Shown one piece after another: positions 1-35,455 of a stretch of 43,247 bases of DNA (positions within the stretch are counted from its first letter, which is position 1; each line of letters starts with the position of its first letter). A program made the position numbers and the translations under genes. The stretch comes from a virus (lineage: Duplodnaviria > Heunggongvirae > Uroviricota > Caudoviricetes). The stretch covers positions 1-43,247 of the IMG/VR virus record IMGVR_UViG_2540341091_000003, one strand, 5' to 3'. The notes beneath the pieces were generated by a model. The model made no database searches and was not told where the DNA came from. It was given only the letters and a program-made list of their open reading frames with translations.

Positions 1-1254
1 ATGCTGGAACAAATGGGCATTGCCGCGAAGCAAGCCTCGTATAAATTAGCGCAACTCTCCAGCCGCGAAAAAAATCGCGTGCTGGAAAAAATCGCCGATG
101 AACTGGAAGCACAAAGCGAAATCATCCTCAACGCTAACGCCCAGGATGTTGCTGACGCGCGTGCCAATGGCCTTGGCGAAGCGATGCTTGACCGTCTGGC
201 ACTGACGCCCGCACGGCTGAAAGGCATTGCCGATGATGTGCGCCAGGTGTGTAACCTCGCCGATCCGGTGGGGCAGGTAATCGATGGCAGCGTACTGGAC
301 AGCGGCCTGCGTCTTGAGCGTCGTCGCGTACCGCTGGGGGTTATTGGCGTGATTTATGAAGCGCGCCCGAACGTGACGGTTGATGTCGCTTCGCTGTGCC
401 TGAAAACCGGTAACGCAGTGATTCTGCGTGGCGGTAAAGAAACCTGTCGCACTAACGCGGCAACGGTGGCGGTGATTCAGGACGCCCTGAAATCCTGTGG
501 CTTACCGGTGGGTGCCGTGCAGGCGATTGATAATCCTGACCGTGCGCTGGTCAGTGAAATGCTGCGTATGGATAAATACATCGACATGCTGATCCCGCGT
601 GGTGGCGCTGGTTTGCATAAACTGTGCCGCGAACAGTCGACGATCCCGGTGATCACAGGTGGTATAGGCGTATGCCATATTTATGTTGATGAAAGTGTAG
701 AGATTGCTGAAGCATTAAAAGTGATCGTCAACGCGAAAACTCAGCGTCCGAGCACATGTAATACGGTAGAAACGTTGCTGGTGAATAAAAACATCGCCGA
801 TAGCTTCCTGCCCGCATTAAGCAAACAAATGGAGGAAAGCGGCGTGGCATTACACGCAGATGCAGCTGCGCTGGCGCAGTTGCAGACAGGCCCCGCGAAG
901 GTGGTGGCTGTTAAAGCGGAAGAGTATGACGATGAGTTTCTGTCATTAGATTTGAACGTCAAAATCGTCAGTGATCTTGACGATGCCATCGCCCATATTC
1001 GTGAACACGGCACACAACACTCCGATGCGATCCTGACCCGCGATATGCGCAACGCCCAGCGTTTTGTTAACGAAGTGGATTCGTCCGCTGTTTACGTTAA
1101 CGCCTCTACGCGTTTTACCGACGGCGGCCAGTTTGGACTAGGTGCGGAAGTGGCGGTAAGCACACAAAAACTCCACGCGCGTGGCCCAATGGGGCTGGAA
1201 GCACTGACCACTTACAAGTGGATCGGTATTGGTGATTACACCATTCGTGCGTAA
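1..1254 (+). CDS. proA: gamma-glutamyl phosphate reductase (glutamate-5-semialdehyde dehydrogenase)
   Basis: 417-aa ORF whose whole sequence ([38 protein letters not shown]... ending ...GIGDYTIRA) I recognise as enterobacterial ProA; chromosomal GC-rich codon usage; followed by thrW as in E. coli. Confidence 0.97.
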
Positions 1255-1368
1255 ATAAAACCGGGTGATGCAAAAGTAGCCATTTGATTCACAAGGCCAT
1301 TGACGCATCGCCCGGTTAGTTTTAACCTTGTCCACCGTGATTCACGTTCGTGAACATGTCCTTTCAGG

Positions 1369-1444
1369 GCCGATATAGCTCAGTTGGTAGAGCAGCGCAT
1401 TCGTAATGCGAAGGTCGTAGGTTCGACTCCTATTATCGGCACCA
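1369..1444 (+). tRNA. thrW: tRNA-Thr (anticodon CGU)
   Basis: 76-nt sequence GCCGATATAGCTCAGTTGGTAGAGCAGCGCATTCGTAATGCGAAGGTCGTAGGTTCGACTCCTATTATCGGCACCA with canonical D and T arms, a CGT anticodon in the anticodon loop and a 3' CCA; sits downstream of proA as thrW does in E. coli. Confidence 0.93.
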
Positions 1445-2622: not shown

Positions 2623-2849
2623 TTTCTTTCCTCTGTTATGCCATCACCCGCGCTCACCTGGACAGTATGCAGCGGAGACTGAAGAGCCGCAATGCAGGCT
2701 TGTCGTGTTGTGAGGTAAGGAGATTTATTCTTAGTGGGATCTTTGCGTGTTGCCTGAAGACGCCCTGTGCGTATCCAGTTAATGGCAGTCGGTCTGGATA
2801 TCTTGAGAAAATGACAGGCCTCATCGAGTGTGAGGCTGTATGGCTCCAT
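2499..2849 (-). CDS. Excisionase/AlpA-like small DNA-binding protein (start assumed at the internal Met of the 2499..2933 ORF)
   Basis: [37 protein letters not shown]... looks like a helix-turn-helix of the Xis/AlpA type directly upstream of int; the 3' part overlaps int by ~124 bp in another frame, so the C-terminal extent is uncertain. Confidence 0.5.
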
Positions 2850-3154
2850 TATTTCACCTCTTGCTGTGACATTGTTGAAAAATGGATACCAGCTCGTTGC
2901 TGCCAGACGATCCAACCGAGAGTCATATCCCATGCCATGTATTCGTTATCGCCGTTTTTTGCTCTCCGACGATCTACTAAGTCACCGAAACGCTTTTCCA
3001 TGAATAATTCATAAGCTTCGCGTTCATCTGGTTCTACTTCCAGAGATAGGAGTGCGATTTCATAAGCACGGCGCTCAATATCGTCTCGCACGTCAAGGCT
3101 GCTGATACGCTCTTTAATTTCTTTAATCAGTTCTTTGTCGGTAAAAGTGGTCAT
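2849..3154 (-). CDS. Phage early protein, hypothetical (101 aa; YfdT-like by position and size)
   Basis: ORF with ATGA-type overlaps to both neighbours in a co-directional early-left operon; acidic, no motif recognised. Confidence 0.6.
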   Translation of the reverse strand: MTTFTDKELIKEIKERISSLDVRDDIERRAYEIALLSLEVEPDEREAYELFMEKRFGDLVDRRRAKNGDNEYMAWDMTLGWIVWQQRAGIHFSTMSQQEVK

Positions 3155-3516
3155 TATGCTCCAGCCTCCGGTGCTTTTGGCATTACTGCCCAGTGAGTGA
3201 TATTGACGTTTTCAAGGTCCCCGACCTGAAATGTCCACTGCCATTCTCCGGTTTCTTTTTGTCCCCAGGTGTACCAGAGAGAACGCCAGCCAATTAGCCA
3301 GCCTTCTCCTTTAGCATCGAATAACAAAACACTTTCATTTGCTGGTGGCAGTTCAGTTGACACTGGTATTACTTTGTTTTCCTGTGCTGCACATTTAGCT
3401 TCAAGCGCATCGAATTTACGCACCAGGTATTCAGCATCTGTTTCATTTACTTTCAGATCTCGCGGTACACATCTCCCACGAAGAAACCCTTCCATTTCGA
3501 AAACATTCATGCGCAT
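3154..3516 (-). CDS. Phage early protein, hypothetical (120 aa; YfdS-like)
   Basis: ORF translationally coupled to flanking genes; Trp-rich C-terminal half reminiscent of small lambdoid early proteins. Confidence 0.6.
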   Translation of the reverse strand: MRMNVFEMEGFLRGRCVPRDLKVNETDAEYLVRKFDALEAKCAAQENKVIPVSTELPPANESVLLFDAKGEGWLIGWRSLWYTWGQKETGEWQWTFQVGDLENVNITHWAVMPKAPEAGA

Positions 3517-4070
3517 TTGCGTAACTCCGATAACTCGTTAAAGCGTTCCATAAACATCCCGTAGGCATGGCCCGGTGCCAGTGGAATCACGTTGAACATC
3601 TCTGTTGCCGGGATACCTTCCAGTACAGGCCAGAAAGAGCCATCATCAAGCCCGAGATCGCGCTGTTCGGTTGCCAGCATGATGAGATCGGCATATTTCA
3701 CGGGCGTACTCATAACTGGGGGTAACCCGTATTTCTCACGGATTACGGCGTCTATTTTTTCTTCCATTTGTTTATAGTCAGGAAGAAGGCGTTTCAGTGG
3801 TGCGGGAATGTCCTGGCAATACGCTTCTGTTGCATCATGCATTAACGCTTCAAAAGCAAATTCCTGCGGCACCAGCTGGCTGCAAAGAACCGCATGTTGG
3901 GCGACGCTGTAGAAGTGCGAAAGATGACCGGCAAAGCGACAGATATTTGAAAGGGAAACCGCGATATCGTTAATATCGATGTCGTCTTTATTTATCCTGT
4001 CATAATAAAAATGCTTCCCGGAAAAAGTTTTAATAAATGACATTTTGTTCTCCACGTATATGCGCTGCAC
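3507..4070 (-). CDS. HD-domain phosphohydrolase (YfdR-like)
   Basis: Motifs ...GHLSHFYSVAQHAVLCS... and ...LMHDATEAYCQDIP... match the H...HD...D metal-binding pattern of HD hydrolases. Confidence 0.7.
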   Translation of the reverse strand: MQRIYVENKMSFIKTFSGKHFYYDRINKDDIDINDIAVSLSNICRFAGHLSHFYSVAQHAVLCSQLVPQEFAFEALMHDATEAYCQDIPAPLKRLLPDYKQMEEKIDAVIREKYGLPPVMSTPVKYADLIMLATEQRDLGLDDGSFWPVLEGIPATEMFNVIPLAPGHAYGMFMERFNELSELRKCA

Positions 4071-4170: not shown

Positions 4171-4995
4171 TCAGGCGGTGAAAGTACCAATAAAGGTTTC
4201 TACTTTGCTGTCCTTGAATTTCTCAACAAGCAGATCACGAAATTCGTTAGCCATTTCTTCCTGCACCGCCTCCAGCTGAATAATGCGCAGAACCAGTACA
4301 GGACGATCGCCAGTGATAATACTGAGGCGTAATTTAAACGGACGTTCTTTCAGACCTTCAAACGGAACGCATTTAAATTCAAATGCCACTGGCATAATGT
4401 CTTTGGTCTTCGCTTCGACAGACTCCATCAGGGAGCGTTTGCCGCTGAAGTCATTATCTTCAAAATCAGCGGTCTGGTTTGCTTCAATCGTGATTTTACG
4501 GACAGCCGCAGCCGCTTTTGTTGCCTGAATGGCGTCACCATTAGCATCAAAGCCCACAAGGTAGTCGGCCCAGTCTTCAATCCATTCTGCCAGTGACTTC
4601 TGGGAGTTACGCTCGCCGTTAACAGACAACAGAGCAGAGAACGGTGCTGTCTTTTTCAGTTTGAGAGTGGCGGTGTTATCTGCGTGACCTGGTTCATCAA
4701 TAGTACCCAGGTTAAGCACACTGACGGCACGCATATTATCGGCATCGATAAAGCAGCGGGTGCCTTCATCTGCAAGAACTTTAGAATAACGGGTAAAGTC
4801 ATCGATGCTGGCAGTGGAAAGCGCACCACGGAAACGGAAGCGATTTAAATTAAATTTTTCCAGATCATGAATGCGGAAATTCTCAGGCAATGCCACAGCA
4901 TCGGCACCAATCTTACTGATAATTTCATTAACACCCTGAGCAGAAATAAGGGCATGGATTTGATTAATTGCGGTTGCGTCTAAGTTCTGAGACAT
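4171..4995 (-). CDS. DUF2303-family phage protein (YfdQ-like, 274 aa)
   Basis: Size and position match YfdQ of the CPS-53 early region; the family call is from memory and unverified. Confidence 0.65.
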
Positions 4996-5059: not shown

Positions 5060-5422
5060 TTAACGACCTGCTGCGCGGAGTTTTCCGTCAGGTTCACCGG
5101 CAAGAGTCAGTAATTGTCCCTGGTCTTCCTGCAGAATAGTCAGGCGACCACCGCGATTGACATACATCGGCGTTTCGGTGGTGTCTTCTTCGGAAATTTT
5201 CCCGCGGTTAGTCGGGCGAACATATGAGAGTTTGTGTTTGATTTTCACTCGGTTCTCATCAAACGGTTCGATTTCCAGGTTGAGCGAGACCTTACCTTTG
5301 GTTTTCGTGTTCATCACACCGGAAGCGACTTCACTGAGAACTGCGCCGATTTTGGTTTCAAATACGCCGCCGTCCAGCTCCCCGATAAATGCCTGCACAT
5401 CAGTACTGCGTTCGCTAGCCAT
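5060..5422 (-). CDS. Small phage early protein (YfdP-like, 120 aa; start at internal ATG 5420-5422 preceded by GAGGAG)
   Basis: The 226-aa ORF in the track has a Pro/Arg-rich, non-protein-like N-terminal extension; the Met at 5422 has a strong RBS and gives a 120-aa product MASERSTDVQAFIGELDGG.... Confidence 0.6.
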   Translation of the reverse strand: MASERSTDVQAFIGELDGGVFETKIGAVLSEVASGVMNTKTKGKVSLNLEIEPFDENRVKIKHKLSYVRPTNRGKISEEDTTETPMYVNRGGRLTILQEDQGQLLTLAGEPDGKLRAAGR

Positions 5423-5890
5423 TTTGCTGCTCCTCATCATATCGACCCTGCAAGGTCGGTTAGTTTCTCCACAAAACAGAGAAGAACACCTGCGGTGACT
5501 GCCGCCCGGATGGATTGGGTTATGAGCCCGTCGTCCGGTGATGCTCTTCTCTGTTTTGTAAAAAGGACGGTACCAGCCGGAAGCAAGGGTACAAGCTGGT
5601 ACCGCCAAGACTACACACAGCATAAAGTTGTGGTGCCGGGTGCCTCCCGGTGCCTGGCGAAGGTTGCACACCAGGCGGGTGGGTATCCACAGAAGGTCGA
5701 CTGTCAGCCTCAACCTTAACCCGCGTGCGCTGAGCCGCATTCACCACAACGCTAAGGATTCTCTCTGGTTGAAAATACTTAGCTGTTATGTGCCTGCTTT
5801 TAGCCACATCAGGCGAGGTGGACCTAGTTATTCCCCAACAACAAGGATTCGGTTAATCTGGTTATCCCCAACAACGCAAAAGGAAAAGAA

Positions 5891-6325
5891 ATGTCCGGTA
5901 ATATCTATACGCTGTACAAATCCCACTGTGAAAATGTTGGAAAGTATCGGGGCATTGAAATCAGTGGGGTAGTGTCATCAGTCGAAATAAGCAAAGTTGA
6001 ATCAAGGGCAACATTACTTACTCTTTTGGACCTTGTCTTACATGAGCACCGGAAGAAATTCGGCACTCCCTATAATCAGTTGAATGGGAAAAAGGCTCTG
6101 GTTCACCTTATTCTGATGAAGCATCACTGGATGCCAAAACAGATTAATGAGATGAAATTTGATGAACTTCTTCTTTCAATTCAGGATGAACTCACACTTG
6201 ATAAAATAAGCGTAACCGCCCAGAAATTTTTAGATTATCGAGACTGGAGATCACAAATTCATCACTTTGATGATTTTGACGAAAATGAATGGGATCCTAA
6301 TTTGTCTGCACAATATCTAAAGTAA
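5891..6325 (+). CDS. Hypothetical protein, 144 aa, AT-rich orphan gene antisense to the early-left operon
   Basis: ORF with AAGGA RBS 6-8 nt upstream; markedly AT-rich compared with neighbours; no motif recognised. Confidence 0.55.
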   Translation: MSGNIYTLYKSHCENVGKYRGIEISGVVSSVEISKVESRATLLTLLDLVLHEHRKKFGTPYNQLNGKKALVHLILMKHHWMPKQINEMKFDELLLSIQDELTLDKISVTAQKFLDYRDWRSQIHHFDDFDENEWDPNLSAQYLK

Positions 6326-6518
6326 CATCCTGTGATAAAACCGTGATTTCCTGATCCAGTTTTTTTAAGGAGTCTATTGTTTCCTGTCGATAAGACAGCA
6401 CTTCACGAAGCTGGTTTATAGCTGCCAGCTTCTTTGTCATCCACTCATAAATTTCCTCATCTGTGTAGCCAGGCGCGACGATTTTGGGTTCTGTTTTGTG
6501 CATTTCACACCTCCTCAA
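6297..6518 (-). CDS. Hypothetical small protein (73 aa), first gene downstream of the putative pL
   Basis: ORF with GAGGAGG RBS (6531-6537 on the minus strand); occupies the position of N in lambda but has no arginine-rich motif. Confidence 0.45.
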   Translation of the reverse strand: MRRCEMHKTEPKIVAPGYTDEEIYEWMTKKLAAINQLREVLSYRQETIDSLKKLDQEITVLSQDVTLDIVQTN

Positions 6519-6659
6519 GTTATCAGTTACTTGTTGATGGGGACCAGATTGTTAAAGAGCTAAGCGTCCTGTAGGGCGCTTTTTTGTTGCTAACGAATCA
6601 CCCTAGACTTTATATGCCCCAGGCGGCTACTTCGTGGGCGTCCTGCCTGTTCGTTATCT

Positions 6660-6740
6660 TTGATATAAAATCTAACTTAACTTAGTTATTATGGCAAGAG
6701 AAAACACCAAACTTTTCTTAGTTCGGTGCCTTAGTTAGAG
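6660..6740. promoter_or_regulatory. Putative left operator/promoter (OL/pL) region
   Basis: Repeated CTTAG-containing half-sites (CTAACTTAACTTAG at 6672-6685; CTTAGTT at 6718-6724 and 6730-6736) matching the palindromes found between cI and cro. Confidence 0.45.
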
Positions 6741-6750
6741 AAGAGAGGTC

Positions 6751-7377
6751 TTAGAGTTCGTATTGAACTCCTTTGACTACACCAATGATAAGGCAATTAC
6801 CATTGATAGGGATGTTGGGATACCGAGGATTTAAAGGCACTAAAAACTTTTGAGGGCCATCGATGACTAATTTTTTTACTGTAGCTTCGTTTGTTCCATC
6901 AAGTCGAGCGATGACTATTTTTCCATGACGAGGTTCTGCATCTGGATCTACAATCACTGTTGCGCCTTCTGGTATTGTTGGGAGGCCATTAGGGTTAGTC
7001 ATGGAGTCACCTTTAACCTCTAATGCAAATGAGTTATCACCAATCTTTAATGATGTATCTACCCACTTGTCCACTTCACTAAACACTTCTGCTGCCCTGC
7101 ACTCAGTAAACTGCCCAGCCTGAACCCACGATATTACAGGAACTCTGCGCATGTTTGTGACGAGTTTGCCTTCAAACTCAGCACCATAAAGAATGTAATC
7201 TATTGACGTATTGAAGAACTTCGCTAATTTCGAAAGTGCCTCCCCACCAGGGGTATTGATGTCTTTCTCCCAGTACCCCACAGCAACGTCGCTTACTCCA
7301 CAAAATTTACCCAATTCTTTCTGGGACGTTCCGGTAACTCTTCTCAGAGCTTTTATACGCTGACCAACCGTTTCCAT
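6751..7377 (-). CDS. CI-like repressor (HTH + S24 LexA-type autopeptidase domain)
   Basis: N-terminal HTH (QKELGKFCGVSDVAVGYWEKDINTPG), C-terminal ...ALEVKGDSMTNPNG... Ser-protease motif and downstream Lys; divergent from cro. Confidence 0.9.
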   Translation of the reverse strand: METVGQRIKALRRVTGTSQKELGKFCGVSDVAVGYWEKDINTPGGEALSKLAKFFNTSIDYILYGAEFEGKLVTNMRRVPVISWVQAGQFTECRAAEVFSEVDKWVDTSLKIGDNSFALEVKGDSMTNPNGLPTIPEGATVIVDPDAEPRHGKIVIARLDGTNEATVKKLVIDGPQKFLVPLNPRYPNIPINGNCLIIGVVKGVQYEL

Positions 7378-7394
7378 AGGAGCACCATTTCTTG

Positions 7395-7470
7395 AATTGC
7401 TAAGTAATCTTAGTTTTTATTGACCAAAGATAGATTTGTAATTAGCATCTAATAAAACTTAGTTTGGAGG
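7395..7470. promoter_or_regulatory. Right operator/promoter region (OR, pRM/pR) between cI and cro
   Basis: Palindromes CTAAGTAATCTTAG (7400-7413), ATTAGCATCTAAT (7441-7453) and AAACTTAGTTT (7455-7465) in the 97-bp divergent intergenic region; TTGACC at 7420-7425. Confidence 0.6.
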
Positions 7471-7474
7471 GCGT

Positions 7475-7675
7475 ATGACAACTGACGATATCGAAAGCTA
7501 CTTCGGCAGTATTGAGAAAGTTGCTGCTTTTTTCGGCATAACAACTGAAGCCGTTTATCAGTGGCGAAACCGTCCGGGCCAGTTAATTCCAAAAGGACGT
7601 GCAGCAGAAGCTGCATATAGAACTTGCGGACGGTTGCCATTTAAACCTGAGCTTTATGAAAAATCTAATGGATAA
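7475..7675 (+). CDS. Cro-like HTH regulator
   Basis: 66-aa ORF divergent from cI; ...FGITTEAVYQWRNRPGQLIP... HTH. Confidence 0.8.
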   Translation: MTTDDIESYFGSIEKVAAFFGITTEAVYQWRNRPGQLIPKGRAAEAAYRTCGRLPFKPELYEKSNG

Positions 7676-8264
7676 ATCGATTAACAGAAACCACAGAACG
7701 ATGAGGCTAACCGTGGGTAAGCATCACTGGAAAGTAGAAAAACAGCCTGAGTGGTACGTGAAAGCTGTCAGAAAAACTATCGCAGCGTTGCCGGGTGGTT
7801 ACGCTGAAGCAGCTGACTGGCTGGATGTAACAGAAAACGCATTATTTAACCGCCTTCGTGCCGATGGCGATCAGATTTTCCCGCTGGGATGGGCAATGAT
7901 TTTGCAACGTGCTGGTGGAACTCACTTCATTGCTGACGCTGTGGCGCAGTCTGCAAATGGCGTCTTTGTGTCTCTTCCTGACGTCGAGGATGTGGACAAC
8001 GCCGATATTAACCAGCGCCTGCTGGAAGTCATTGAACAGATTGGCAGTTATTCCAGACAGATTCGTTCGGCAATCGAAGACGGTGTGGTGGAACCGCATG
8101 AGAAGACAGCAATTAACGACGAGCTGTATCTCTCAATTTCGAAGCTGCAGGAGCATGCAGCACTGGTCTACAAAATCTTTTGCATTTCAGAAAGTAATGA
8201 CGCCCGCGAGTGTGCAGCTCCGGGCGCCGTGGCGTGTCGTGACTGTGGAGAAACTAACGCATGA
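7656..8264 (+). CDS. CII-like / early regulatory protein (start uncertain: 7656 or 7668)
   Basis: ORF directly after cro in the cII position; overlaps the cro stop; no motif assigned with certainty. Confidence 0.5.
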
Positions 8265-34410: not shown

Positions 34411-35455
34411 ATTTCAGCGCCCGACGCTGGCAGAAAATATCAGTATGCTCCGTAACGATTTATTCGCCAGGCTGGACGTCAGCGACACGCTCCGGCGCAT
34501 GGATGAAGACGTGCGGGCAAAGGTGTATGCGGCGGCGCTGCATACGGTTTACGGGTACATCGATTATCTGGCAATGAACATGCTGCCTGACCTGTGCGAT
34601 GAGTCCTGGCTGGCGCGACATGCTGCGATGAAACGGTGTCCGCGCAAGGGGGCCACGGCTGCCAGCGGGTATATGCGCTGGGAAGGTGTCAGCGATGGCC
34701 TGAAGGTGACCGCCGGGAGTGTTATTCAGCGCGATGACCTGGTTCAGTACACGGCAACTGCCGATGCAACCAGCTCCGGTGGTGTCCTGCGCGTGCCGAT
34801 CGCCTGCTCAAGTGCAGGCGCGGTCGGTAACGCTGACGACGGTACGTCATTAATCCTGGTCACGCCGGTTAATGGTCTGCCGTCTTCCGGCGTGGCAGAT
34901 ACCCTGACAGGTGGATTTGATACTGAAGAGCTGGAAACGTGGCGTGCCCGCGTCATTGAGCGGTATTACTGGACGCCTCAGGGCGGGGCTGACGGGGACT
35001 ATGTCGTCTGGGCTAAAGAAGTGCCCGGCATTACCCGCGCATGGACATACCGTCACTGGATGGGAACGGGAACTGTCGGTGTGATGATTGCCAGCAGTGA
35101 CCTGATTAATCCCATTCCGGAAGAATCAACGGAAACGGCAGCAAGACAACATATCGGGCCACTGGCCCCGGTGGCAGGCTCTGATTTGTATGTATTCAGG
35201 CCGGTGGCACATACGGTGGATTTTCATATCCGCGTGACGCCGGACACACCGGAAATACGGGCTGCCATTACCGCGGAGTTGCGTTCGTTCCTGCTGCGTG
35301 ATGGTTATCCGCAGGGAGAACTGAAGGTATCGCGTATCAGTGAGGCGATTTCCGGTGCGAACGGGGAATACAGCCATCAGTTGCTTGCACCGGTGGACAA
35401 TATCTCCATTGCGAAAAACGAACTGGCGGTACTGGGGACGATTTCATGGACGTGA
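34397..35455 (+). CDS. Baseplate J-like wedge protein (Mu gp47-like)
   Basis: 352 aa; conserved order. Confidence 0.8.

What the first reader, a model, noticed from the sequence alone, without database searches (positions are those of the whole stretch)
5891..6325. AT-rich orphan ORF antisense to the early-left operon, in the rex-equivalent position
Seen in sequence: a 144-aa ORF with a good RBS, compositionally distinct (AT-rich) and on the opposite strand to its neighbours; its 3' end overlaps the 3' end of the convergent 73-aa gene by 29 bp; it is preceded by the paired CCCCAACAAC direct repeats. Established knowledge: the region between cI/pL and the recombination genes is where lambda carries rexAB and where other lambdoid phages carry exclusion morons. 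Inference: a candidate single-gene exclusion or anti-defence moron.
Basis: partly seen in the sequence, partly recalled or inferred. Interest (0 to 1): 0.45.

Follow-up and report, generated by a model that had tools for sequence, protein, structure and literature searches.

The report
Prophage-expressed gene paired with convergent partner
The ORF is a real gene from a widespread but uncharacterised prophage family (ECs1072 family) that always sits backwards inside a lytic operon, almost always tail-to-tail with a small partner gene, and is probably switched on in the dormant prophage; its biochemical job is still unknown.

Summary
There is a 144-aa ORF at 5891-6325 (+) with a Shine-Dalgarno sequence and 38% GC against 51% for the window. 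It lies antisense to the early-left operon, overlaps a convergent gene by 29 bp, and is preceded by two TCCCCAACAAC copies.

Three parts of the reading need correction.
- It is not an orphan. It belongs to NCBIfam NF033230 (ECs1072 family) and phrog_5286, and occurs in 420 of 5426 complete E. coli genomes. Relatives occur in Yersinia, Pectobacterium, Proteus, Pantoea, Salmonella and Klebsiella prophages.
- It is not in the rex position. It lies downstream of pL, convergent with the first pL gene, which is the topology of lambda sieB and N.
- It is not a single gene. In 12 of 13 contexts it is paired with a convergent, 3'-overlapping gene for a small single-helix protein.

The ST64B homologue is STMMW_20121, which published RNA-seq shows is transcribed from its own promoter in lysogens. 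No known domain, fold or defence family matches. The cassette sits in a conserved slot, bounded by co-varying inverted repeats, that holds at least four alternative cargos.

Verdict: a lysogen-expressed accessory (moron) module, probably exclusion or defence. Function is untested.

The parts
5891..6325 (+). ORF144, an ECs1072-family phage-associated protein (all-alpha, about 145 aa)
   Evidence: ORF found. phrog_5286 E 1.5e-90. NF033230 scores 157.8 bits against a cutoff of 70. AF2 pLDDT 94.7. 76 representative clusters.
5880..5886 (+). Shine-Dalgarno-like AAGGAAA upstream of the ORF144 ATG
   Evidence: Read directly from the sequence.
6297..6503 (-). Convergent partner gene, 68 aa from the ATG at 6503 (mechanical 73-aa ORF runs to 6518). 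phrog_1744. It has an N-terminal P-x14-W motif followed by one long helix, and is the first ORF of the pL operon.
   Evidence: Leave-one-group-out HMM E 2.2e-7 against the next-best ORF at 0.58. AF2 gives a helix at residues 15-58, pLDDT 86.
5855..5875 (+). Left arm of the cassette's terminal inverted repeat (AATCTGGTTATCCCCAACAAC). It contains the second CCCCAACAAC copy.
6531..6550 (+). Right arm of the terminal inverted repeat (TTGTTGATGGGGACCAGATT)
   Evidence: I2. Arm duplex dG is -23.6 against a shuffled mean of -10.0, sd 2.8. The arms close the MFE fold of the whole cassette RNA on both strands.
5826..5842 (+). Outer direct copy GGTTATTCCCCAACAAC, in the constant left flank shared by all cassette types
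6562..6587 (+). Intrinsic-terminator-like hairpin plus T-run for rightward transcripts, in the constant right flank. A second such site lies at 6407-6432, inside the partner gene.
   Evidence: The U.G pair makes the stem complete only on the + strand (read from the sequence).
6549..6560 (-). Perfect rrn/P22-type boxA (GCTCTTTAACAA) in the pL leader, directly before the right repeat arm
   Evidence: The only exact match in the window. Identifying it as boxA rests on established knowledge of boxA.
6669..6697 (-). pL-like promoter (TTGCCA-17-TAGATT), overlapped by operator-like CTAA-N6-CTTAG repeats at 6672-6685 and 6707-6720. The same repeats occur at oR (7400-7413, 7449-7462).
5557..5780 (-). 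STnc100-like sRNA with its own terminator, in the early-left operon between the cassette and yfdP
   Evidence: Rfam RF02076, 43.4 bits (gathering score 47), E 3e-8, full-length match to the model.
6751..7377 (-). cI-type repressor (HTH_3 plus Peptidase_S24)

Best explanation
ORF144 is the prophage-side half of a conserved, mobile two-gene accessory (moron) module.

Shown:
- It encodes a soluble, all-helical protein of about 145 aa from the ECs1072 family.
- In every context examined, the gene points against the lytic operon that hosts it. These are pL here, pR in Sakai Sp4, the pR'-holin interval in ST64B and a Klebsiella phage, and the early operon in P2-like prophages.
- In 12 of 13 contexts its 3' end overlaps a convergent gene. 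That gene encodes a small protein with a conserved N-terminal P-x14-W peptide and one long helix.
- The ST64B member is transcribed from its own start site at 60-270 TPM in lysogens, in 16 of 17 conditions, while neighbouring lytic genes are silent.

Inferred for this prophage:
- ORF144 is made in the lysogen while cI keeps pL off. Its transcript would end at the + strand terminators at 6432 or 6581.
- After induction or infection, pL transcription runs through the partner gene and then antisense through ORF144. That would shut ORF144 down at the RNA level and produce the partner protein, which probably binds or antagonises ORF144 protein.

Most likely role (inference only): a cytoplasmic superinfection-exclusion or anti-phage function of the lysogen, with the partner as the resident phage's off-switch or self-immunity factor.

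Probabilities: about 0.7 that it is a lysogen-expressed accessory gene working with the partner, and about 0.35 that the activity is phage exclusion or defence.
For: - Family membership and reality of the gene.
- Antisense orientation next to immunity or lytic promoters in independent phage backgrounds.
- pL and its operators lie upstream of the partner gene.
- The topology matches lambda N and sieB. A SieB-domain gene sits directly downstream on the same strand in Yersinia locus L085.
- Conserved partner: in each of 8 loci the convergent overlapping ORF is the best hit, or in L094 one of the two best hits, of a leave-one-group-out HMM among all six-frame ORFs. E-values run from 1.5e-11 to 6e-4, against 0.19-4 for the best unrelated ORF. 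Four further loci are positive with the full model, which is not a leave-one-out test. L093 and the alternative cassettes score at noise level.
- Lysogenic transcription of the homologue: ST64B ORF 2845..3279 (144 aa, 71-bp overlap with sb50) matches STMMW_20121 (435 bp, 71-bp overlap with STMMW_20131). [quoted passage not shown]
- ECs1072 itself gave a regulated signal in uninduced Sakai cultures (PMC2241611).
- AT-rich composition and exchangeable cargo at the same slot fit horizontally acquired accessory genes.
Against: - No expression data exist for this prophage, and no consensus sigma-70 promoter was found upstream of ORF144.
- In ST64B the partner is also expressed in lysogens (22-258 TPM). 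It appears to lie in a constitutively transcribed pR'-tR' leader, so a strictly lytic-only antidote does not fit all contexts.
- One close relative (L093, 56% identity) has no partner.
- The conserved H53-R54 and H72 residues are missing in the Sakai namesake, which argues against a shared catalytic site.
Confidence: 0.5

Rival explanations
1. Lysogeny safeguard or regulatory module. The partner would be a small early protein harmful to the host, in the manner of Kil or DicB, or a regulator. ORF144 would exist to neutralise leaky expression of the partner, or of the pL leader and boxA. It would do this by convergent transcription and antisense pairing, and perhaps as a protein antagonist. The result would be a more stable prophage rather than defence against other phages.
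For: - The module always sits within the first few hundred nucleotides after a lytic promoter or an antitermination signal: pL and boxA here, pR' in ST64B and Klebsiella, after cII in Sp4.
- The rightward transcript would be complementary to the partner mRNA and, if it reads to 6581, to boxA.
- Both genes are expressed at similar levels in ST64B lysogens, as expected for an antagonist pair.
- Owen et al. list the homologue as 'accessory or regulatory'.
Against: - A purely RNA-level role would not need a well-conserved 145-aa folded protein.
- L093 keeps the gene without the partner.
- Neither product has any toxicity data.
Confidence: 0.25
2. Anti-defence (counter-defence) or host-modulating cargo. 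ORF144 would inhibit a host or competing defence system, or alter host physiology, with no exclusion activity of its own.
For: It is small, soluble, of unknown fold, variable between phages, and sits in a hotspot near the early genes. Lambda carries ral in the equivalent neighbourhood.
Against: Anti-defence genes are normally co-oriented with early lytic operons so that they are made on infection. This family is consistently antisense, and its ST64B member is expressed in the lysogen. It is not acidic like DNA mimics (pI 6.4).
Confidence: 0.12
3. Ordinary lytic-cycle function, or a non-functional or spurious ORF.
For: No function is known and no promoter was detected.
Against: - Full-length conservation holds down to 20-30% identity across genera, with invariant W134 and conserved motifs.
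- The AF2 model is confident.
- PGAP annotates the gene in hundreds of genomes.
- The orientation is opposite to the lytic operons in all contexts.
Confidence: 0.05

Closest known systems
Lambda and P22 sieB (superinfection exclusion B), convergent with N or gene 24
   Same: Same topology. It is a rightward gene embedded antisense in the pL operon, tail-to-tail with the first pL gene; lambda sieB is at 34482-35036 (+) and N at 35037-35438 (-). From general knowledge, not tested here: sieB is prophage-expressed, and P22 encodes its own escape (esc and sas). In Yersinia locus L085 an ECs1072 homologue is followed by a SieB-domain gene on the same strand.
   Different: There is no sequence similarity and no PF14163 hit. 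ORF144 is soluble and all-helical with no membrane segments, and its partner is not N-like.
STMMW_20121 of Salmonella prophage ST64B (Owen et al. 2020, PMC7067206)
   Same: It is a homologue: tblastn gives 32% identity over residues 52-143. It has the same length (144 aa), the same convergent overlapping partner (sb50/STMMW_20131), and lies antisense to lytic genes. It is published as transcribed from its own promoter in almost all conditions and proposed as an accessory or regulatory gene.
   Different: It sits between the Q-like gene and the holin rather than after pL. Its partner is expressed in the lysogen there. Function is unknown in that case too.
Lambda rexAB
   Same: Both are prophage accessory genes beside the immunity region.
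   Different: rexAB lies between cI and oL and is co-transcribed with cI from pRM. ORF144 lies beyond pL on the opposite strand, and there is no sequence similarity.
BstA/aba and Tha/Ith: prophage defence with cognate self-immunity (PMC8585504, PMC11087260)
   Same: The logic proposed here is the same: a lysogen-expressed protein, plus a phage-encoded element made or exposed during the phage's own lytic cycle that cancels it.
   Different: There is no homology, and defence activity has not been shown for ORF144. BstA is co-oriented with cI.
rrn-operon leader (boxB-boxA-boxC plus long-range RNase III stalk) and lambda sib retroregulation
   Same: In the pL transcript a perfect boxA is followed at once by an arm that pairs with a distal arm 0.55-0.8 kb away, looping out the whole cassette.
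   Different: Cleavage and function are untested. The repeat could equally act in the rightward mRNA or at the DNA level.

Membership tests
ECs1072 family phage-associated protein (NCBIfam NF033230) / phrog_5286 | Whole-protein HMM score above the curated cutoff, with a full-length match | tested here: met
   157.8 bits against a cutoff of 70, residues 4-144 on profile positions 2-142. phrog_5286 E 1.5e-90, 1-144 of 144. The namesake ECs_5703 aligns to the family profile with hhalign probability 97%, E 2.9e-11.
Moron (autonomous accessory unit in a prophage) | Composition distinct from the neighbours, and presence or absence varying between otherwise similar phages | tested here: met
   GC 0.379 against 0.508. 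SfV, PhiR29_1 and other prophages carry different cargo between the same flanks.
Moron (autonomous accessory unit in a prophage) | Own terminator | tested here: met
   Terminator-like hairpins with T-runs on the + strand at 6407-6432 and 6562-6581. This is a pattern match only.
Moron (autonomous accessory unit in a prophage) | Own promoter | tested here: inconclusive
   No + strand sigma-70-like site lies between 5300 and 5890. The ST64B homologue has its own mapped start site (PMC7067206).
Moron (autonomous accessory unit in a prophage) | Expression from the repressed prophage | not testable with these tools
   Only indirect evidence exists: STMMW_20121 at 60-270 TPM in ST64B lysogens, and ECs1072 detected in uninduced Sakai.
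RexA/RexB | Sequence homology, and location between cI and oL co-transcribed with cI | tested here: not met
   No Pfam or PADLOC hit. The gene lies downstream of pL on the opposite strand.
SieB (PF14163) | Match to the SieB domain | tested here: not met
   No Pfam family at E <= 0.1. Only the genomic topology is shared.
Known anti-phage defence systems (PADLOC-DB 2.0) | HMM match to any component | tested here: not met
   No family at E <= 1 for ORF144, its partner or the alternative cargo proteins.
HD / HDOD / HD-GYP superfamily | HD fold with the H...HD...D metal-binding residues | tested here: not met
Type II toxin-antitoxin pair | Two small adjacent genes co-transcribed as an operon, with recognisable toxin and antitoxin folds | tested here: not met
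   The genes are convergent, not operonic. Neither has a Pfam or PDB match.

The most novel reading that the evidence does not exclude
The locus may be a plug-in expression socket for lysogen-expressed cargo inside the early-left operon. It would consist of a constant left flank, a constant right flank carrying a rightward terminator and the pL boxA, and exchangeable cassettes of 0.55-0.8 kb. The ends of each cassette form a co-varying long-range stem of 14-21 bp. That stem would loop the antisense cargo out of the antiterminated pL transcript, for example for RNase III processing as in rrn operons, or would pair the 5' and 3' ends of the cargo mRNA. The ECs1072-partner pair would be one such cargo and a previously unrecognised two-component exclusion system with built-in self-immunity.
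Probability: 0.2. Interest if true: 0.7.

Novelty: new member of a known kind. Interest (0 to 1): 0.45.

Why it matters
The gene sits in about 8% of complete E. coli genomes and in prophages of many Enterobacterales, and a homologue is among the few prophage genes constitutively transcribed in Salmonella lysogens. Even so, nobody knows what it does. Three things make it directly testable:
- the strict antisense orientation;
- the conserved convergent partner;
- a defined slot with alternative cargo.

Together they define a candidate new prophage exclusion or self-immunity pair and a compact set of constructs for testing it. The repeat-bounded slot next to boxA may also show how temperate phages tolerate backwards-facing cargo inside essential operons.

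Tried and rejected
Searches that gave nothing:
- Pfam, PADLOC and a PDB sequence search with the 47-sequence profile.
- Foldseek against PDB and BFVD: nothing at E <= 0.001, TM below 0.3. A few HEPN chains appeared at probability below 0.1. I rejected them because the family has no Rx4-6H motif.
- The afdb50 library was not available.
- The search for related loci with the broad alignment failed for lack of a conserved stretch. With the narrow alignment it returned only loci 100% identical to the query.
- blastn in distant mode on E. coli genomes found no diverged copies. The Sakai namesake had to be found by coordinates. It is undetectable by BLASTP but clear by profile comparison.
- Literature searches for ECs1072, SfIV orf36, yfdP/CPS-53 and ECOR13 found no functional study.

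Ideas considered and rejected:
- Invertible segment. All 80 IMG/VR loci carry the module in the same orientation relative to the flanks.
- DNA mimic. The pI is 6.4.
- The partner as an N-like antiterminator. It has no Arg-rich N-terminus, and it occurs after Q and after cII in other phages.

Not attempted: a fused-chain complex prediction.

Full report
**The window**

The window is E. coli chromosome. proA and tRNA-Thr(CGT) at 1369-1444 are followed by a prophage integrated there. The prophage is of the SfIV/SfV/CPS-53 type. Kati, vB_EcoS-569R4, vB_EcoM-689R6 and SfIV match 5400-6700 at 98.5-99.5% identity.

The early-left genes run on the - strand: the yfdT and HD-phosphohydrolase genes, yfdQ (DUF2303, 4171-4995) and yfdP (5060-5422). 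The cI-type repressor is at 6751-7377 (-) and cro at 7475-7675 (+).

**Checking the observation**

- The ORF is at 5891-6325 (+), 144 aa, with AAGGA 7-11 nt before the ATG.
- GC is 0.379 against 0.508 for the window, in the lowest 4.3% of 435-bp windows.
- The overlap with the convergent ORF 6297-6518 is 29 bp.
- Two exact TCCCCAACAAC copies lie at 5832 and 5865.
- The motif has a third, inverted copy at 6533-6543. These three are its only occurrences in 43 kb, where 0.79 is expected by chance.
- The convergent gene is better read as 68 aa from the ATG at 6503, which follows a GGAGG. Most database copies are annotated that way.

**Not an orphan**

- The protein matches phrog_5286 end to end (E 1.5e-90) and NCBIfam NF033230, 'ECs1072 family phage-associated protein' (157.8 bits, cutoff 70).
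- The gene is present at 95% identity or more in 420 of 5426 complete E. coli genomes, and PGAP annotates it under that name.
- An exhaustive profile search found 76 representative clusters at 50% identity.
- A 47-sequence alignment shows invariant W134 and near-invariant L50, R54, L64, G66, A69 and H72.
- AlphaFold2 gives a confident all-helical model (pLDDT 94.7, pTM 0.89).

The gene is real. No function is attached to either family name.

**Where it sits**

- A pL-like promoter (TTGCCA-17-TAGATT, 6697-6669, - strand) lies just downstream of cI.
- It is overlapped by CTAA-N6-CTTAG repeats (6672-6685, 6707-6720) that recur between cI and cro (7400-7413, 7449-7462).
- This segment (6656-7688) is swapped as a unit among otherwise near-identical prophages, as expected for an immunity region.
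- About 100 nt into the leftward transcript lies a perfect rrn/P22-type boxA (GCTCTTTAACAA, 6560-6549), the only exact copy in the window. The 68-aa gene follows, then the antisense of ORF144, then an STnc100-like sRNA (5780-5557; 43.4 bits against a gathering score of 47, E 3e-8), then yfdP.

ORF144 is therefore inside the pL operon, backwards and tail-to-tail with its first gene. In lambda, that is the arrangement of sieB (34482-35036, +) against N (35037-35438, -). rexAB instead lies between cI and oL on the cI strand. The position is sieB-equivalent, not rex-equivalent.

**Comparative contexts**

I recovered contexts for homologues at 20-72% identity.

| Host / element | Position of the gene | Calls |
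|---|---|---|
| Yersinia, Pectobacterium, Proteus, Morganella, E. albertii prophages | between yfdP or rdgC and the repressor | 41-43, 49, 97, 99 |
| Rac-like prophage with exonuclease VIII | in the early-left (pL-side) region | 48 |
| P2-like prophages of Pantoea and Erwiniaceae | between cox and gpA | 47, 98 |
| Sakai prophage Sp4 (family namesake, now ECs_5703) | between the cII-like gene and O | 61; profile match probability 97%, |
| ST64B and Klebsiella phage KPP5665-2 | between the Q-like gene and the holin | 12, 80 |

In every one, the gene is on the strand opposite to the surrounding lytic operon. In one Yersinia prophage a SieB-domain gene follows it on the same strand.

**A conserved partner**

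- In nearly all these places a small gene converges on it and overlaps its 3' end. The products share an N-terminal (E)P-x-[IFL]-x2-G-x2-[TSD]-x2-[ED]-[LIV]-x2-W-[LM] motif followed by a long helix.
- I tested this without choosing by eye. I built an HMM from the partners of all other groups and scanned every six-frame ORF of each locus.
- In seven of the eight loci the convergent overlapping ORF was the top hit. In L094 it ranked second (E 6e-4), behind a second partner-like ORF (E 2.9e-5). E-values ran from 1.5e-11 to 6e-4, against 0.19-4 for the best unrelated ORF.
- Four further loci were positive with the full model, which is not a leave-one-out test. L093 and the two alternative cassettes (SfV, PhiR29_1) scored at noise level.
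- That makes 12 of 13 contexts with a partner.
- The partner family has 157 clusters, all annotated as hypothetical.
- Its AlphaFold2 model is an extended N-terminal peptide plus one helix at residues 15-58 (pLDDT 86).

**Expression**

- The ST64B member is a 144-aa ORF (L004 2845-3279) that overlaps sb50 by 71 bp.
- In S. Typhimurium D23580 this geometry is exactly STMMW_20121 (2090066-2090500, 435 bp) and STMMW_20131 (2090430-2090789), lying between the holin and the Q-like gene.
- Their table gives 60-270 TPM in 16 of 17 conditions. The holin is at 0.3-33 TPM and the Q-like gene at 1.5-7 TPM.
- The partner is also at 22-258 TPM there. It appears to lie in a pR'-tR' type leader: a promoter-like site at 3602-3575 and a terminator at 2760-2741 on the - strand.
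- ECs1072 itself gave a growth-phase-regulated microarray signal in uninduced Sakai (PMC2241611).
- For the present prophage there are no data, and I found no consensus promoter upstream of the ORF.

**Biochemistry**

**The slot and its inverted repeats**

Among IMG/VR prophages sharing the right flank, four unrelated inserts lie between the same left and right flanks.

| Insert length | Loci | Cargo |
|---|---|---|
| 771 bp | 78 | this cassette |
| 655 bp | 18 | phrog_1244 CxxC protein |
| 664 bp | 4 | phrog_1244 CxxC protein |
| 782 bp | 4 | phrog_3983 protein |

- Each insert has a + strand ORF starting shortly after the left boundary. SfV has yet another insert, with different boundaries.
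- Every insert is bounded by an inverted repeat of about 20 bp, and the two arms change together:
  - AATCTGGTTATCCCCAACAAC / GTTGATGGGGACCAGATT
  - AATCTGGATATCCCCAACAAC / TGTTGTGGATATCCAGATT
  - AATCTTGATACCCCCAATAAC / GTTACGGGGATACTAAGATT
- The two-sided changes include G>T paired with C>A, and CAAC>TAAC paired with GTTG>GTTA.
- The same design occurs in Edwardsiella, Buttiauxella and another enterobacterial genome, and around the 56%-identical gene in the Rac-like prophage.
- Arm duplexes have 14-21 pairs and dG of -16 to -27 kcal/mol. Shuffled arms give a mean of -7 to -10. In 7 of 8 variants the real value beats all 200 shuffles.
- The minimum-free-energy fold of the whole 0.6-0.75-kb cassette RNA closes with this stem on either strand, in all four types.
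The inner copy is the left arm.
- The rightward terminator (6562-6581) and boxA belong to the constant right flank.
- I could not decide whether the stem acts in the pL transcript, in the cargo mRNA or on DNA. Only one pair is strand-informative, a G.U on the + strand.

**Interpretation**

The best-supported reading is that ORF144 is the lysogen-expressed half of a conserved convergent two-gene accessory module.
- *Shown:* family membership, strict antisense orientation, partner linkage, and lysogenic transcription of a homologue.
- *Inferred:* the gene is expressed in this lysogen; induction silences it by convergent pL transcription; the partner protein antagonises it; and the activity is exclusion or defence.
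- *Main rival:* a safeguard or regulatory pair, in which ORF144 restrains a potentially harmful early protein or the boxA leader. This fits the ST64B co-expression somewhat better.
- *Less likely:* anti-defence cargo, because of the orientation and the lysogenic expression.

**Novelty**

The protein family is already named, and one member has been flagged in the literature as a candidate accessory gene, so the ORF itself is a new member of a known kind. I found no prior description of the conserved partner or the repeat-bounded slot in the papers I could search. That is absence of evidence, not proof of novelty.

Noticed in passing
window 5826-5875 and 6531-6550; also L003, L093, L217-L219 and IMG/VR loci L095-L211: The cassette is bounded by terminal inverted repeats of about 20 bp that co-vary with the cargo, across at least four unrelated cassettes in the same slot and in other genera. 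The arms are predicted to close a long-range stem over the whole 0.55-0.8-kb insert.
   Followed up: partly
window 6549-6560 (-), with hairpin 6562-6581: A perfect rrn/P22-type boxA (GCTCTTTAACAA) lies about 100 nt downstream of the pL-like promoter and is the only exact copy in the window. No N-like protein or boxA was seen on the pR side, so early-left antitermination may be of the rrn type. The adjacent hairpin is complete only on the + strand, where it looks like the terminator for rightward cargo transcripts.
   Followed up: partly
window 5557-5780 (-): An STnc100-like sRNA (Rfam RF02076, 43.4 bits against a gathering score of 47, E 3e-8, full-length match) with its own terminator lies between the cassette and yfdP. 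A weak DicF-like match lies at its 3' end. This stretch is conserved in many lambdoid and Stx phages.
   Followed up: partly
L002 (SfV) 3461-3706 (+) and 3624-3920 (-): SfV carries, in the same slot, an unannotated 81-aa + strand ORF (phrog_3311) that converges on and overlaps the annotated orf33 (phrog_3195). This is a second convergent overlapping pair of unknown function.
   Followed up: no
L085 5827-6321 (+): In a Yersinia prophage the ECs1072 homologue is followed on the same strand by a SieB-domain gene (PF14163), so two backward-facing accessory genes are stacked next to the repressor.
   Followed up: no
L090 5849-6070 and L094 6139-6282 (-): Proteus and Morganella prophages carry two partner-like genes: a short ORF73-like one, and a longer one that overlaps the ECs1072 homologue.
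   Followed up: no
L004 (ST64B) 3575-3602 and 2741-2760 (-): In ST64B the whole module lies between a promoter-like site just after the Q-like gene and a - strand terminator before the holin. That is the equivalent of lambda's constitutive pR'-tR' leader, and it may explain why the partner is expressed in lysogens.
   Followed up: partly
window 1-1444: The window starts in chromosomal proA followed by tRNA-Thr(CGT). The prophage is integrated at this tRNA, as for the SfIV/SfV group.
   Followed up: yes
window 5060-5740 (-) and SfIV annotation L001 3661-4341: The mechanical 226-aa ORF, annotated as a 226-aa CDS in SfIV, is almost certainly an over-extension of the 120-aa yfdP gene (5060-5422) across the sRNA region. 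SfIV_35 (345 nt, +) is likewise a doubtful call over the same non-coding stretch.
   Followed up: partly
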